From the IMG/VR virus record IMGVR_UViG_3300020046_001459, positions 3,750 through 67,749 of that record: a stretch of 64,000 bases of DNA; one strand, given 5' to 3'. Positions 18,888-34,587 of this stretch are shown here, in pieces. This stretch comes from a virus. The notes under the pieces are model-generated. The model saw nothing but the letters and a program-made list of their open reading frames with translations. It was not told the origin of the DNA and did not search any database. Numbering within the stretch: position 1 is the stretch's first letter; each line of letters begins with the position of its first letter. The position numbers and the translations under genes were made by a program.

Positions 18888-21800
18888 ATGGGTAAAAAAG
18901 AAAAATTTTCAGGTATTCCTCAAGAAGCCATTAACCAACCAATACAATTAGATCCAGCATTATTTAAACAAAAATCAGAATTTATAGGTTCTTCACAGAA
19001 TAAAGATTTTGGGGAAAGTAAGCTTGATACTAATGTACCTGTTTCAATGGTTGAATCAGGAGATTATAAATACTTACGTGGTCAAAAACAATCTAATTTG
19101 GATAAAGCTGCTCATGGAATTATCCGTGGGGTAGGAGCCGCTGCTCAAACTTTAGCAGATGGTACTGTTGGTATTGGTTATGGTTTGATGAAATATTCAT
19201 CAGATGTTGCTACAGATGAATTAAATAAAGCTAAATATAAAGCTGAACATGGTACTCTTGAAGGATTTAAACCTTCTTCATGGACTGCTATCTTTGATAA
19301 TGAAGTTACTAGAAAAGGTGAGGAACTTGTTAAGGATCTAGAAGGTGAAGTACCTCTCTATAATACTAAAGAGTATGAAGAGGCATCTGGTATTGAGAAG
19401 TTGAAATATATGAACTTCTGGATGGATGATGTTGTTAAAGGTATTGGTACCACAGTTGGTTCTATGCCTTTAGGAGCTATGGGCTCTAAATTATTTAATG
19501 CTATTGGTAAGAACTTTGTAGCTGGTAAACTAGCTAATGGGGTTAAGACTGCATTAACTGGTACTGAGAATCTGGAAAAGGTTCTTGTAGATCAAGCTAA
19601 AAAAATAAAAATATATAATGCCACAGATAAACTAACTGCCAGTGCTTTTGCTTCTGTAAGTGAGGCTGGTATGGAAGCTCGTGGTACAGGAGATAAATTA
19701 CGAGAACAGTTATTATCTGAAATCTCTGCTAATGGTACAAGACAACCTACTCAAGCAGAATTAGACTGGGTAGAAATGACTGTAGATGATGCTAAGAAAG
19801 CTGCTTTTGGAACTAACATGGCTATTATTAGTGGTACAGATTTCTTTACCTTTGGTAAGTACATGGTATCTAATAAGTCTGCTAAGTACTTAGACGATAT
19901 AGAAAAACTATCTTCTAAGACTAATGTTAATGCTGGAAAGTATATCAATAAGGTTTCTAAAGAAGGTTCTACATTAGGTACAGATTACGTAGCTACAGAG
20001 TTATCTAAAAGTAAAAAAATATTAGATGCTGTAACTAAAGCTACTAAGCGTGTTATAGGAACTAATCTTGGTGAAGGTATTGAAGAGAATCTTCAAACTG
20101 CTACTGATTGGGGAGTTATTGACTTCGCTAAACAAAAATATTATGGTAAGCAAGATGCAGAATCTTTCTTACATTCATTAGGCGCAGCCTATGAAGGTGC
20201 AACATCTTCTGAAGGTGTTGAGGCTTTCTTAGCCGGATTTATTAGTGGTGGTATCTCTAACACTATTCTATCTAAGGGACAAAATATTAAAGAAGCATTC
20301 TCTAAGGATCCTGTTGTTAATAATGCTTTATCACAAATAAACCTATACAACTCTCAAAGTGTTATGGGTGAGTTAATGAAAGGTGTTGCTGAACAGTATG
20401 CTGCTGGTGTGCGTATGGATAATGCTAAGAGTGATACTTTTACATTTAACAATGCTCAATCAGATTTAGCTACTAGTTATGTATTAAGTCGTATTAAGAC
20501 TGGTAAGTTTGAAGATTTACAAACAGATCTTGATGAGTTAAAATCAATGCCTTCTGATGAGGTAGAAAAACTATTTGGTGTTAAGATTGGTGAAGGTGGT
20601 AAGAGATCTGTAGTAGATTATATCCAAGGAAAGATGGAGCAAGCTAAACAGATCAAACAGATCCATGATGCTAGTTATGTTGTGTTCCCTGAAGGAACTG
20701 TATCTGATAATAATCGTGATAGATTAATACATGCTAATGTATCTATCTTAGACTCACAAAAACGTATAGACTCTGTTAATAAAGATATCTTAGAAAAAAC
20801 AACAGGTCTATCTGAAAACTATAGTGAGAACGGACAAGTATCTACTGTTAACCTATCTCATTTCACAAAATCTGATGGTACAGTAGTTAACTATAATCAA
20901 CTTTCAGGTAAAGAAAGAAGTGCTGTTAGTGGTGAAATAGTTGCTAGATTAGAAAATAGTTCTATAGCTCCTGTAGAAATTCCTGGAATATTTAATCAAT
21001 TACATGATTTAGATAGATTAAAAGTTAGGCATGATGCCTATAAGGATATTTATAATTCATTATTAAATCCTGTAGAGGCTGCTAAGTTAGATAAAGAAGA
21101 TGCTGCTATTGAGAAAGAAATAGTACAGGAGAATGCTGCTAAAAAACTACAAGAAGAAAATCCCATTGTTACCAAAACTACAGAAAGTAAATCTGCTGCA
21201 TTAGCTGCTGCTCAAAAAGAAGCTACTGAAAATGGTAATATTGATGTCAACACAGAAGATTTCGCTGATCCTAATATTAAAAAAGCTAATACTATTATAG
21301 ATAAGATTGGGGAATCACAAATAGATAATCCAATGTTTGATGCTTCTGGTAATTTTAATCCTGATGCGGAAGATCCTGGTAAAAAAACATATGATAATTC
21401 TAAAAAACCTTTAACTGTACATAAAGAAGTTCTATCTGGGAAAGATACTTTTAATAGAATACATGTTAATAAGCATGATGCACCCAACGTTAAGGTTAAT
21501 GAGCTTAGAAAAGCACTGAGTAATATTTTTAAACTTCCAAAATCTGAATGGAATAAATATATAAAAATAGATCTTACTAATTATTGGTCTACAAGAAATA
21601 CTTCCAGTGATCAAATTCATACTAATAAATCTAATTCCCCATTTAATACTAAAGGTAACCAAGATATAGATACTAAAATTATTATTATTGATCCTGCTAC
21701 AGGAAAGATAGTAGATGATTTCCATAATATAAAGTATCATAATATGCTTACTCCTAAGAAGGAGATGGTTATAGGTACTAAAACATATAAACCTGGTGAG

Positions 21801-33600: not shown

Positions 33601-34587
33601 GATGTATTTGATTTTGCTTATAGTTTACAAGATGGTGGTGAGTTTGCAGCTCAATCAAGATCTGGTATAGCCATGTTAATGGACACATATAACATAGATG
33701 GTAAATGGATGCTTTATTCTGAGATTAAAGAAATCCATAAAGATAAAACTGAAGATTTTCTTAAAGATAAAAAATCCTTATATGATAGTATGGAATTTGA
33801 TCCTTCTACAGGTGCTCTAAAAACACCTGAAGCATTATCTAATTCTGATAAACATAGACTAACTAATAGGATAATTGAGATGAATAAATACATCCATGGT
33901 AACTATGCTTGGGAAGATAGAATGGCTATCCAGGAACATTGGTTAGGTCAATTTGCAGCACAGTTCCATAAGTGGGTATATCCTGCTATTAAGTCAAGAT
34001 TTGGTGAACAACAACACTATGAAGGACTTGATCTGGATATGAAAGGGCGTTATATTACTTTATTTGAGTTTCTGAAACATAATAAATTTACAGTAGCTAA
34101 CTACTATGATAGCTATACTAAGTTATCTGAAATAGATAAAGCTAATATGCGTAAAAATATGAGAGAATTAGCGTTCTTTATGACCTCTCTAGCATTATTC
34201 CACTTATTCTCAGCTATATCTGAAGGTATAGATGACGATGATGAGGAGCTTAAGAAACTAGTTAACTTCTTAGCATTCCAGCAAAATAGACAAATGGGTG
34301 AGATTCAAACTCTTATACCAGTATTTGGTATTAGGCAGCAATATGACCTCATTAAAAGTCCATTTGCAGCAGCGTCTACTGTTAAAGAAGGTGGAGAAAT
34401 GTTAAGATCTATGATTACTACGCCAGTATATGGCGCTTTAGGAGTAGAGGGTGAAAACTTCTATAAGAAAGGTATCCATAAAGGAGATCTTAAGTTATGG
34501 AAAGAAACCAAAGATTTCATCCCATTCTTAACAATATTCAATAAGTACGATAACTTTATTAACCAACAGGAGTTTTGGGTTAAGTAA
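30625..34587 (+). CDS. large protein (1320 aa) with HExxH zincin-type metalloprotease motif
   Basis: FLLFHELSHVIYED...LLHERAIAIE (HExxH plus downstream Glu) near residue 163; ATGA-coupled to upstream gene. Confidence 0.7.
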   Translation: MIACPNKSTPAWQNLVKKYGDTKAMYMYTKNGEVIPSLEEAAKLLKFKSIREQVSIGMIETLVNKANKVRAAKKLPNIVITRNKSTIGSLASFNSSTGVLNITPNINPSVIVDYMMGNDISTSSKQKKIMLAKIEAEEFSLEEIKSLLHNDEDAFNFLLFHELSHVIYEDSASYPKDKEGNLDLLHERAIAIETRATIEALNSLKAINSDEEVYKADAKKKETPGNSNENKNTSIWDSVTKSIVDVLKLRKEYFERFEGSEGFDFGKNSINRIEALLAMANNTTDQKVMFKRLLNNATIELDKVRKYLNNPEKRNDPNYLRNIIEFKKYIASYQGLTRPDLAFDDKTRKDIITLSSQLVELKTALPGHILDSVKELAREKLSKGASMTDEELDTMLKQGYDISLSDMAFRDLSTSTDKLLALVDKLYKDAEQKSLDKLDTFESKVKALGRKLVSVGVTTYDWMFEKDGDRTTGNYIRKISKEYYKKLYELKDKMSDDTGATLQYKHITDTSKASVADLQYNKMVKRVKANFADFITAERLEEGNLLDGDNVKYTDEFKAARAKHEEHVEVGEKGYKEWVKKASVSAEEYERYKYKYFTEPKLTLKAIPEFNKVLNKYEFTGKTDYRTVSFVKAEYTEVREDKWGNKEYLALMNDNSESGKAKRDFYKFFAQQMEDPKGLLSALPKDVRSDMKGRIPVVIKSFKKQLLNSDAGKLSVLGRAIKGMFNVEVFEKKRQTDEQGLLVSDVPIFHTQRLRNERTIERLKDKIADIKQGTDQTELEKYQKALKIEESKPTASEMETDLVDVLLNTANMAYNYEAMKNIESSVLAIKDVIETKKYYQKSGSGILKNQSGEPALVEGKDSLAAKRLSTWMRMVLYDNSEMDNTKIAKFSKTVLKYNSLKGIGLNPFSAINNYVMARINTSIEAAGGKFFQQSSGNKATALFNTEFLPNIFKEINQSKYAEKKASSKYKAVVDYFRFIKHQASIDGRTSNGDVFDFAYSLQDGGEFAAQSRSGIAMLMDTYNIDGKWMLYSEIKEIHKDKTEDFLKDKKSLYDSMEFDPSTGALKTPEALSNSDKHRLTNRIIEMNKYIHGNYAWEDRMAIQEHWLGQFAAQFHKWVYPAIKSRFGEQQHYEGLDLDMKGRYITLFEFLKHNKFTVANYYDSYTKLSEIDKANMRKNMRELAFFMTSLALFHLFSAISEGIDDDDEELKKLVNFLAFQQNRQMGEIQTLIPVFGIRQQYDLIKSPFAAASTVKEGGEMLRSMITTPVYGALGVEGENFYKKGIHKGDLKLWKETKDFIPFLTIFNKYDNFINQQEFWVK

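What the first reader, a model, noticed from the sequence alone, without database searches (positions are those of the whole stretch)
18888..34587. 3745-aa giant protein with RNA-polymerase-like DFDID loop, followed by a 1320-aa HExxH protein, at the end of the virion block
The single 11.2-kb ORF contains WLSGADFDIDKLYVY, a DxDxD triad spaced like the NADFDGD metal-binding loop of the double-psi beta-barrel RNA polymerase fold. crAss-like phages package such a giant RNA polymerase in the virion and eject it for early transcription. Its position, last in the structural block before the convergent early/replication block, fits that arrangement. The next 1320-aa protein has an HExxH zincin signature (FHELSHVIYED, followed by a downstream Glu). 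This could be a virion-associated protease or a maturation/ejection factor.
Basis: partly seen in the sequence, partly recalled or inferred. Interest (0 to 1): 0.7.

Follow-up and report, generated by a model that had tools for sequence, protein, structure and literature searches.

The report
crAss-like phage virion RNA polymerase module
The giant gene encodes the RNA polymerase that crAss-like phages carry in the virion, here fused to its partner protein and a zinc-protease-like domain; this is a well-described system, seen in a very divergent new phage lineage.

Summary
ORFs of 3745 aa (18888-30125) and 1320 aa (30625-34587) exist, with DFDID at aa 2718 and HELSH at aa 161. They close the + strand virion block of a crAss-like phage, downstream of the ring and muzzle proteins.

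The RNA polymerase reading holds. A profile built from eight other crAss polymerases, without the giant, matches giant aa 2215-3233 (E 5e-56). A profile including it hits the solved phi14:2 gp66 polymerase (PDB 6VR4, E 8e-68) across both barrels, connector, bridge helix and trigger loop. gp66's catalytic motif is also DFDID.

The 1320-aa protein is the ortholog of phi14:2 gp65 and crAss001 gp49, the third polymerase-associated virion protein. Its HELSH motif is shared only with one 64%-identical ortholog and matches no zincin profile. Its low-confidence model retrieves no zincin, so a protease role there is unproven.

Verdict: a new, deeply divergent member of a known system. All fusion variants of this module have precedents.

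The parts
18888..30125 (+). Giant ORF of 3745 aa. It is a fusion of a gp47-like polymerase-associated module, a zincin-like domain and a gp66/gp50-type virion RNA polymerase.
   Evidence: ORF list; BLASTP domain map against crAss001, p-crAssphage, cr114_1 and phi14:2 proteins
18888..22757 (+). N-terminal module, aa 1 to ~1290, similar to the front part of crAss001 gp47 (polymerase-associated virion cargo protein). Biochemical function unknown.
   Evidence: BLASTP giant 52-593 vs gp47 76-664, E 1e-6 to 2e-6; gp47 detected in crAss001 virions by mass spectrometry (PMC10172136)
22755..22874 (+). Polar linker rich in K, E, T and G, aa 1290-1329. It is a candidate flexible or cleavable junction (inferred).
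   Evidence: The only 40-aa window in the giant with at least 80% polar residues; pLDDT below 50 in the model
22839..23447 (+). Zincin-like (gluzincin) metallopeptidase domain, aa ~1318-1520.
23094..23108 (+). HEAFH, aa 1403-1407: the two zinc-binding His and the catalytic Glu of the zincin domain.
   Evidence: Invariant H, E, H columns in 17 crAss module proteins; conserved in the sister phage
23274..23276 (+). E1463, the invariant Glu 56 aa after the HExxH. It is the putative third zinc ligand (gluzincin signature).
   Evidence: Invariant column E151 of alignment A3; lies in predicted helix 141-164 of the model
25530..28586 (+). Two-barrel RNA polymerase core, aa 2215-3233.
   Evidence: Leave-one-out HMM of 8 crAss polymerases E 4.9e-56; profile A1 vs PDB 6vr4_A E 7.8e-68, chain residues 873-1756
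25875..26252 (+). First double-psi beta-barrel (beta-subunit-like), approximately aa 2330-2455, mapped by alignment to gp66. The boundaries are approximate.
   Evidence: The region upstream of the gp66 connector start (residue 1095) maps to giant aa up to 2455; invariant K2345, K2361 and K2413; domain data from 10.1101/2020.03.07.982082
26250..26675 (+). Connector domain between the two barrels, aa ~2455-2596.
   Evidence: gp66 residues 1095-1238 map to giant 2455-2596
26676..27227 (+). Second double-psi beta-barrel (beta'-like), approximately aa 2597-2780.
   Evidence: Alignment to gp66 1238-1400; invariant R2679, P2681, S2687, G2716, D2718, F2719, D2720 and D2722 in 9 sequences
27039..27053 (+). 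DFDID, aa 2718-2722: the catalytic Mg2+-binding aspartate triad.
   Evidence: Identical to phi14:2 gp66 1361-DFDID-1365, where each Asp-to-Ala mutant is inactive; aligned column by column
27738..27851 (+). Bridge-helix equivalent, aa ~2951-2988.
   Evidence: gp66 residues 1529-1559 mapped through the 9-sequence alignment
27975..28103 (+). Trigger-loop equivalent, aa ~3030-3072.
   Evidence: gp66 residues 1598-1636 mapped; invariant D3048 and K3051
30125..30628 (+). p167, a small conserved protein of unknown function. It overlaps the stop of the giant (TAATG) and the start of p1320 (ATGA), which suggests translational coupling (inferred).
   Evidence: Overlaps read in the sequence; a 173-aa counterpart at the same position in sister phage L012, 38% identity, E 9e-39; no Pfam or PHROG hit
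30625..34587 (+). p1320, the third polymerase-associated virion protein. It is the ortholog of phi14:2 gp65, crAss001 gp49 and the C-terminal part of p-crAssphage gp44.
   Evidence: BLASTP E 1e-22 (gp49), 1e-17 (gp65), 2e-15 (gp44 residues 3749-4049); 1085 relatives at E<=1e-3 among 1.84 billion representatives
30625..30774 (+). Conserved N-terminal cap of p1320, aa ~1-50 (M..CPNK..P.W..L ... IPS/T.E.A..LL).
   Evidence: Shared at the extreme N terminus by about 30 of the 150 best relatives and by cr114_1 g20
30847..31329 (+). Lineage-specific region of p1320, aa ~75-235, containing HELSH. It sits where orthologs carry a bona fide zincin-like domain.
   Evidence: Shared only with P0001 and fragment P0133; no match to zincin profiles
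31105..31119 (+). HELSH, aa 161-165 of p1320. The motif is real, but its metallopeptidase nature is unproven.
   Evidence: LLFHELSHV is identical in P0001; lies in predicted helix 151-167 of a low-confidence model
31327..34584 (+). Conserved body of the gp49/gp65 family, aa ~235-1320.
   Evidence: Nearly all of the 150 best relatives align from query aa ~235-290 to the C terminus
9125..18880 (+). Upstream context: the muzzle protein (9125-13951) and two proteins of 902 aa (14040-16748) and 693 aa (16799-18880). These two sit where crAss001 has its cargo proteins C1 and C2 (by position only).
   Evidence: Pfam crAss_MUZ E 2e-120; gene order in crAss001, phi14:2 and cr114_1; only a weak hit of p902 to cr114_1 g23, E 0.006

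Best explanation
This is the virion-packaged transcription module of a deeply divergent crAss-like (Crassvirales-type) podophage.

The 3745-aa ORF is a fusion polyprotein with these parts:
- A gp47-like polymerase-associated module (aa 1 to ~1290).
- A polar linker (aa 1290-1329).
- A gluzincin-like metallopeptidase domain (aa ~1318-1520; H1403, E1404, H1407, E1463).
- A single-chain two-barrel DNA-dependent RNA polymerase of the phi14:2 gp66 type. The polymerase part starts at about aa 1550 and runs to the C terminus. Its recognisable core is aa 2215-3233, and D2718, D2720 and D2722 hold the catalytic Mg2+.

A small conserved protein (p167) and the gp65/gp49-type third partner (p1320) follow, with overlapping stop and start codons.

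Shown here: the homology, the domain order, the zincin fold of the internal domain, and the conservation of catalytic residues.

Inferred from phi14:2 and crAss001:
- The proteins are packed in the capsid as cargo.
- They are extruded through the tail and muzzle into the cell.
- They refold there.
- The polymerase then transcribes the early genes independently of the host enzyme.

More weakly inferred: the zincin domain, which sits at the fusion junction, cuts the polyprotein or activates the polymerase.
For: - Context: Pfam crAss muzzle (E 2e-120) and tail ring proteins 1 and 2 lie immediately upstream. A convergent replication and nucleotide-metabolism block lies downstream.
- Polymerase: tblastn of aa 2201-3000 hits 90 crAss-type phages at genes annotated as RNAP. 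A leave-one-out HMM gives E 4.9e-56 over aa 2215-3233. Profile A1 hits 6vr4_A at E 7.8e-68 over chain residues 873-1756. Twenty-two residues are invariant in 9 divergent sequences, including DFDxD.
- Experimental precedent: gp66 has the same DFDID motif. It was shown to be catalytic, virion-packaged and responsible for early transcription (10.1101/2020.03.07.982082).
- p1320: BLASTP to gp49, gp65 and the gp44 C terminus gives E 1e-22 to 2e-15.
- Virion location: gp47, gp49 and gp50 are virion cargo by mass spectrometry (PMC10172136).
- Same architecture elsewhere: cr114_1, the fully fused protein P0041 and the 48%-identical sister phage L012, which conserves both motifs.
Against: - There is no direct evidence for packaging, ejection, transcription or proteolysis in this phage.
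- No 3D model of the polymerase core was made, so the two barrels are located by sequence alignment only.
- Identity to gp66 is low (22% over 793 aligned columns).
- Direct phmmer of the giant against PDB sequences found nothing. The link to the solved structure needs a family profile or the local BLASTP hit (47% identity over 51 aa, E 2e-9).
- The N-terminal 1290 aa have only weak similarity to gp47.
Confidence: 0.9

Rival explanations
1. The HELSH region at the N terminus of p1320 is a second, active zincin metalloprotease. It would be a strongly diverged copy of the zincin-like domain that orthologs carry at the same position.
For: - HExxH is expected only 0.02 times by chance in this protein.
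- LLFHELSHV and AIxIETRAT are identical in the 64%-identical ortholog P0001 and are among the best conserved stretches of the N-terminal 240 aa.
- The motif lies in a predicted helix that follows three short strands, with another helix carrying Glu residues after it.
- Orthologs phi14:2 gp65, cr114_1 g20 and P0041 have a demonstrable zincin-like domain at this position, between the N terminus and the conserved body.
Against: - hhalign aligns only 11 columns, with probability 9.5%.
- No Pfam zincin is found, even at E 10.
- About 90% of the 150 closest family representatives have no HExxH at all.
- The invariant Glu about 56 aa downstream has no clear counterpart.
Confidence: 0.3
2. The HELSH motif of p1320 is a non-catalytic remnant or a coincidence in a lineage-specific helical spacer. 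The only protease-like activity of the module would then reside in the giant protein.
For: There is no profile or fold support. The region is found only in this phage and its sister lineage. Most relatives lack the motif. Crassviruses keep a zincin-like domain at either position or both: phi14:2 has it only in gp65, crAss001 only in gp47. One copy is therefore evidently enough.
Against: The motif and its flanks are perfectly conserved between two phages that differ at 43% of positions in this block. The position matches that of real zincin domains in orthologs.
Confidence: 0.55
3. The giant protein is not processed. It works as one 430-kDa chain, and its zincin-like domain acts on host targets during entry (cell-wall peptides, envelope or defence proteins) rather than on the phage proteins.
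For: Drobysheva et al. name peptidoglycan digestion as one possible role of the zincin-like domain. The closest folds are toxin and effector-type minimal zincins: PPEP, anthrax lethal-factor-like, ArdC. In phi14:2 and crAss001 the three proteins are separate genes, so a processing protease is not obviously needed there.
Against: The domain sits exactly at the junction of the two fused modules, next to the only strongly polar linker of the protein. Proteolytic activation of gp66 was proposed because the crystal form is auto-inhibited. None of this is decisive.
Confidence: 0.3
4. The DFDID is a chance motif, and the giant is merely a structural or ejection protein without polymerase activity.
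For: A DxDxD triad is expected 1.3 times by chance in a protein of this size and composition. Pfam, PHROGs and direct PDB phmmer searches give no hit.
Against: Homology extends over about 1000 aa around the motif at E 5e-56 without the query in the profile. All family-invariant residues are present. The most conserved 100-aa blocks against the sister phage are 2501-2600 (0.70), 2301-2400 (0.64) and 2601-2700 (0.58), all inside the barrel and connector region.
Confidence: 0.03

Closest known systems
Cellulophaga phage phi14:2 gp66 virion RNA polymerase (PDB 6VR4), with neighbours gp67 and gp65
   Same: The catalytic motif is identical (DFDID). Homology spans both barrels, the connector, the bridge helix and the trigger loop. 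The position after the muzzle and cargo genes is the same. p1320 is the ortholog of gp65.
   Different: - In phi14:2 the three proteins are separate genes. Here the upstream partner is fused to the polymerase.
- phi14:2 has its zincin-like domain only in gp65 (HEIMH at aa 245) and none in gp67. Here the demonstrable zincin is upstream of the polymerase, and the gp65-position HExxH is unverifiable.
- Identity is only about 22%.
Bacteroides phage crAss001 gp47, gp50 and gp49 (polymerase-associated virion cargo proteins)
   Same: Giant aa 52-593 and 1350-1464 match gp47, including its HEAFH zincin motif at aa 2157. Giant aa 2282-3094 matches gp50. p1320 matches gp49. All three crAss001 proteins were found in virions by mass spectrometry.
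   Different: crAss001 has three separate genes, and gp47 is on the opposite strand to gp50 and gp49. gp49 has no HExxH and no N-terminal CPNK cap.
Uncultured phage cr114_1 (Suoliviridae, NC_055897): 4272-aa and 1584-aa proteins
   Same: The gene order is the same: muzzle, two mid-size proteins, a giant (partner, zincin, polymerase), a gp49-like protein, then the convergent block. It has zincin-like domains at both positions: HEAWH at 1739 and HEMLH at 186. It shares the N-terminal cap.
p-crAssphage (Carjivirus communis) gp45 ('RNAP associated protein fused to zincin protease') and gp44 ('RNAP catalytic subunit fused to unknown RNAP subunit')
   Same: The same three modules and the same zincin-like domain (giant 1350-1520 vs gp45 1678-1865; p1320 1035-1318 vs gp44 3749-4049).
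   Different: The fusion partner differs. There the polymerase is fused to the downstream (gp49-like) module and the zincin protein is separate. Here the polymerase is fused to the upstream zincin protein and the gp49-like protein is separate.
Neurospora QDE-1 and cellular multisubunit RNA polymerases (two-barrel superfamily)
   Same: A DxDxD Mg-binding loop in the beta'-type double-psi beta-barrel, with a second barrel carrying conserved lysines. This relation was established for gp66 by structure.
   Different: It was not tested directly here. No sequence-level hit to these enzymes was found. The fourth motif position is Ile rather than Gly, as in gp66.
Coliphage N4 virion RNA polymerase (Schitoviridae)
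   Same: The same strategy: a giant polymerase packed in the capsid and ejected to transcribe early genes (PMC13434306 abstract).
   Different: From established knowledge, N4 vRNAP is a T7-like single-subunit right-hand polymerase, an unrelated fold. No similarity was seen in any search here.

Membership tests
crAss-type virion RNA polymerase (phi14:2 gp66 family, two-barrel) | DFDxD metal-binding motif in the second barrel | tested here: met
   DFDID at aa 2718-2722, aligned to gp66 1361-1365 and invariant in 9 sequences
crAss-type virion RNA polymerase (phi14:2 gp66 family, two-barrel) | Sequence homology across both barrels, the connector, the bridge helix and the trigger loop | tested here: met
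   Leave-one-out HMM E 4.9e-56 over aa 2215-3233; profile vs 6vr4_A E 7.8e-68 over chain residues 873-1756
crAss-type virion RNA polymerase (phi14:2 gp66 family, two-barrel) | Two double-psi beta-barrel folds in three dimensions | not tested
The barrels are placed by alignment only.
crAss-type virion RNA polymerase (phi14:2 gp66 family, two-barrel) | Gene located in the virion block, downstream of the muzzle and cargo genes | tested here: met
   same order as phi14:2 and cr114_1
crAss-type virion RNA polymerase (phi14:2 gp66 family, two-barrel) | Protein present in virions, ejected, and responsible for rifampicin-resistant early transcription | not testable with these tools
   Known only for phi14:2 and, for packaging, crAss001
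Zincin-like domain of crAss polymerase-associated proteins: giant aa 1318-1520 | HExxH plus a downstream Glu, and homology to the family | tested here: met
   Invariant H1403, E1404, H1407 and E1463; leave-one-out HMM E 3e-12
Zincin-like domain of crAss polymerase-associated proteins: giant aa 1318-1520 | Zincin fold | tested here: met
Zincin-like domain of crAss polymerase-associated proteins: giant aa 1318-1520 | Zinc-dependent peptidase activity | not testable with these tools
   I found no biochemical test of this activity in the papers I read. Drobysheva et al. only propose roles.
Zincin metallopeptidase: p1320 aa 75-235 | HExxH motif | tested here: met
   HELSH at aa 161-165, conserved in P0001
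Zincin metallopeptidase: p1320 aa 75-235 | Homology to a zincin family (crAss zincin-like domain or any Pfam zincin) | tested here: not met
   hmmsearch gives no hit; hhalign probability 9.5% on 11 columns; Pfam gives none
Zincin metallopeptidase: p1320 aa 75-235 | Zincin fold | tested here: inconclusive
gp49/gp65-type polymerase-associated virion protein | Homology of the C-terminal body of about 1000 aa | tested here: met
   BLASTP E 1e-22 (gp49) and 1e-17 (gp65); 528 relatives at E<=1e-10
Crassvirales-type phage | Muzzle protein and tail ring proteins 1 and 2 | tested here: met
   Pfam crAss_MUZ E 2e-120, crAss_MUZ_C 7.5e-11, CrAss_Ring_1 3.9e-60, CrAss_Ring_2 1.6e-36
Crassvirales-type phage | Assignment to one of the established families | tested here: inconclusive
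   Muzzle and polymerase are only 23-26% identical to any record. The gene order is most like Suoliviridae cr114_1. No marker phylogeny was made.

The most novel reading that the evidence does not exclude
This lineage, with cr114_1 and the fully fused protein P0041, would carry two metallopeptidase positions flanking the polymerase.

The first is a junction zincin that cuts the 430-kDa polyprotein and releases or activates the auto-inhibited polymerase. The second, in p1320, is an N-terminal HExxH domain that has diverged beyond recognition into a new minimal metallopeptidase type.

If so, this fused version would be a natural construct for testing the open question of whether crAss virion polymerases are activated by proteolysis.
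Probability: 0.2. Interest if true: 0.45.

Novelty: new member of a known kind. Interest (0 to 1): 0.25.

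Why it matters
It confirms that the virion polymerase module (partner protein, zincin-like domain, two-barrel polymerase, gp49-like protein) persists even in a crAss-like lineage whose proteins share only about a quarter of their residues with described crassviruses. This supports treating it as a hallmark of the group.

Two small additions come out of the work. First, the zincin-like domain can sit upstream of the polymerase, downstream of it, or at both positions, depending on the lineage. 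Second, in the fused forms it lies exactly at the junction next to a polar linker, which makes proteolytic maturation of the polymerase directly testable.

Nothing here changes current understanding.

Tried and rejected
- **Direct family searches.** Pfam, PHROGs and PDB-sequence searches of both proteins found nothing.
- **Megablast.** The giant gene has no near-identical DNA match in the phage collection.
- **The search for homologous proteins.**
  - One run with the whole giant timed out.
  - Three further runs returned no hit: polymerase core, p1320 N terminus, and alignment A1.
  - This happened although a 64%-identical protein exists in the representative library, so deep alignments from that source were not available.
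- **IMG/VR scan** with the polymerase core found no relative.
- **Zincin family profile against PDB sequences** gave no zincin hit.
- **Transmembrane segments.** None convincing in the giant, p1320 or the two upstream proteins by Kyte-Doolittle scan; the maximum was 1.49.
- **Shared early-promoter motif.** Repeat analysis of the - strand block found none. This agrees with the report that gp66-dependent early transcripts have no common upstream motif.
- **Terminator at the convergent junction.** The consensus scan found no terminator-like site in the 34588-34623 gap. The one site found is at 35080-35094 on the - strand.
- **Read-through or recoding.** The three ORFs are in three different frames with ordinary TAATG and ATGA overlaps, and the giant has no in-frame stop. 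I therefore rejected read-through or stop-codon recoding that would join them into one chain.

Full report
**Observation.** The window contains exactly the ORFs described. They are 18888-30125 (+, 3745 aa) and 30625-34587 (+, 1320 aa), with a 167-aa ORF (30125-30628) between them. DFDID is at aa 2718-2722 of the giant, and HELSH is at aa 161-165 of the 1320-aa protein. The three genes close the + strand block. The next ORF on the - strand ends at 34624, and GC skew changes sign there.

A bare DxDxD is expected 1.3 times by chance in a protein of this size and composition. DFDID is expected 0.003 times, and HExxH 0.04 times in the giant and 0.02 times in the 1320-aa protein. The motifs alone therefore prove little.

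**What phage this is.** The gene upstream (9125-13951) is a crassvirus muzzle protein (Pfam crAss_MUZ, E 2e-120). It is preceded by crAss tail ring proteins 1 and 2. The convergent - strand block encodes nucleotide-metabolism and replication functions.

The phage is very divergent. Megablast of the giant gene finds nothing. The muzzle and the polymerase are only 23-26% identical to any record of the phage collection. IMG/VR holds no close relative of the polymerase.

Exact copies of the 1320-aa protein occur in two JGI metagenomes and one SRA assembly. A sister phage with 48-64% identical proteins occurs in other samples.

**The polymerase.** tblastn of giant aa 2201-3000 hits 90 crAss-type genomes, at genes annotated as RNA polymerase in many records, including crAss001 and p-crAssphage gp44. 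A profile of this region with five crAss homologs hits one solved structure, 6vr4_A. That is the phi14:2 gp66 DNA-dependent RNA polymerase (E 7.8e-68, chain residues 873-1756).

A profile built from eight other crAss polymerases, without the giant, matches giant aa 2215-3233 at E 4.9e-56 for a nominal database of one million sequences.

gp66 has the same motif, 1361-DFDID-1365. Each Asp-to-Ala mutant is inactive. The protein is in the virion and transcribes the early genes (10.1101/2020.03.07.982082).

Mapping the published gp66 elements through a nine-sequence alignment places them in the giant as follows:

| Element | Giant aa |
|---|---|
| First barrel | ~2330-2455 |
| Connector | 2455-2596 |
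| Second barrel | ~2597-2780 |
| Bridge helix | ~2951-2988 |
| Trigger loop | ~3030-3072 |

Twenty-two residues are invariant. They include three lysines in the first barrel and R2679, P2681 and the DFDxD in the second. Against the sister phage, the barrel and connector region holds the best conserved 100-aa blocks: 0.70 for 2501-2600, 0.64 for 2301-2400 and 0.58 for 2601-2700. I did not model this region in 3D, so the second barrel is located by alignment, not by fold.

**The giant is a fusion.** Several pieces match known crAss proteins:
- aa 52-593 resemble the front of crAss001 gp47.
- aa 1350-1464 resemble the gp47 C-terminal part, which includes its HEAFH.
- The same stretch matches p-crAssphage gp45, annotated 'RNAP associated protein fused to zincin protease'.

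An alignment of 17 such regions from crAss module proteins has four invariant columns. They correspond to H1403, E1404, H1407 and E1463 of the giant, which is the gluzincin signature.

The only strongly polar stretch of the protein (aa 1290-1329) lies just before this domain. The order is therefore partner module, linker, zincin, polymerase. The polymerase part is about 2200 aa, close to the 2180 aa of gp66.

**The 1320-aa protein.** It is the ortholog of phi14:2 gp65 (E 1e-17), crAss001 gp49 (E 1e-22) and the C-terminal part of p-crAssphage gp44. It has 1085 relatives at E<=1e-3 among 1.84 billion representatives. gp47, gp49 and gp50 are virion cargo proteins of crAss001 by mass spectrometry (PMC10172136). 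[quoted passage not shown]

The relatives align from about aa 235-290 onward. Many also share a ~45-aa N-terminal cap. The region between the two is variable.

In phi14:2 gp65, cr114_1 g20 and the fully fused P0041, that variable region holds a zincin-like domain that the family profile detects. In the window it holds HELSH. This region is shared only with the 64%-identical ortholog P0001, where LLFHELSHV is identical.

No test supports a zincin at this position:
- The zincin HMM does not match it.
- hhalign aligns only the motif, at probability 9.5%.
- Pfam finds nothing.
- The three-sequence AlphaFold model is poor (pLDDT 56) and retrieves no zincins.

About 90% of the 150 closest relatives have no HExxH at all. 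A protease function for this motif is therefore possible by position but unproven.

**The small ORF.** p167 overlaps both neighbours (TAATG and ATGA). It has a 38%-identical, 173-aa counterpart at the same place in the sister phage, so it is a real gene. No family matches it.

**Comparison and novelty.** All fusion states of the module have precedents:
- Three separate genes in phi14:2 and crAss001.
- Polymerase fused to the downstream partner in p-crAssphage.
- Upstream partner fused to the polymerase in cr114_1 and here.
- All three fused in P0041.

The zincin-like domain is upstream only in crAss001 and p-crAssphage. It is downstream only in phi14:2, and at both positions in cr114_1 and P0041. 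The window is thus a new, deeply divergent member of a known system.

**Mechanism.**
- Shown here: homology, domain order, catalytic residues, and the zincin fold of the internal domain.
- Inferred from phi14:2 and crAss001: packaging as capsid cargo, ejection through the tail, refolding, and early transcription.
- Weakly inferred: the junction zincin cleaves the polyprotein or activates the polymerase.

Noticed in passing
window 30625-30774 (p1320 aa 1-50): A conserved ~45-aa N-terminal cap (M..CPNKN.PE[YW]K.L ... IPT[VI]E[QE]A..LL) is shared by about 30 of the 150 best relatives and by cr114_1 g20. It is absent from phi14:2 gp65 and crAss001 gp49. Its function is unknown; it could be a packaging, ejection or binding signal.
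   Followed up: partly
window 30125-30628: p167 is a small gene wedged between the giant and p1320, with overlapping stop and start codons. It is conserved (38% identity, 173 aa) at the same place in the sister phage L012, and no family matches it.
   Followed up: partly
window 35413-40307 (- strand): Right after the convergent junction lie an SPFH/Band_7 protein (35413-36633), a NAPRTase-family protein (36897-38534), a PRPP-synthetase-like protein (38596-39513) and a metallophosphatase (39516-40307). This looks like a nucleotide or NAD salvage cluster.
   Followed up: no
window 61917-62465: Three copies of a 37-nt AT-rich direct repeat start at 61917, 62145 and 62429 (spacing 228 and 284 nt), in a stretch without ORFs of 100 aa or more. 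A weaker fourth copy is at 55695. They could be regulatory or promoter repeats.
   Followed up: no
L012 15484-16461 (sister phage, ENA ERZ27293231 k141_569185): The sister phage has a reverse transcriptase (Pfam RVT_1) in its convergent block, a few genes beyond its gp49-like gene. The ORFs tested at the corresponding place in the window (35413-41750) gave no RVT_1 hit.
   Followed up: no
L003 5664-23238 (cr114_1): The homologous genes of cr114_1 contain 69 and 38 in-frame TAG codons (stop-codon recoding). The window's module has no in-frame stops under the standard bacterial code.
   Followed up: partly
window 14040-18880: The two proteins of 902 and 693 aa sit between the muzzle and the giant, where crAss001 has cargo proteins C1 and C2. 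They have almost no detectable similarity to those or to any family; the best hit is E 0.006 to cr114_1 g23.
   Followed up: partly
Yet the exhaustive representative search found 1085 relatives, including one at 64% identity. An empty result from that tool should not be read as absence for AT-rich, Lys/Glu-rich phage proteins.
   Followed up: yes
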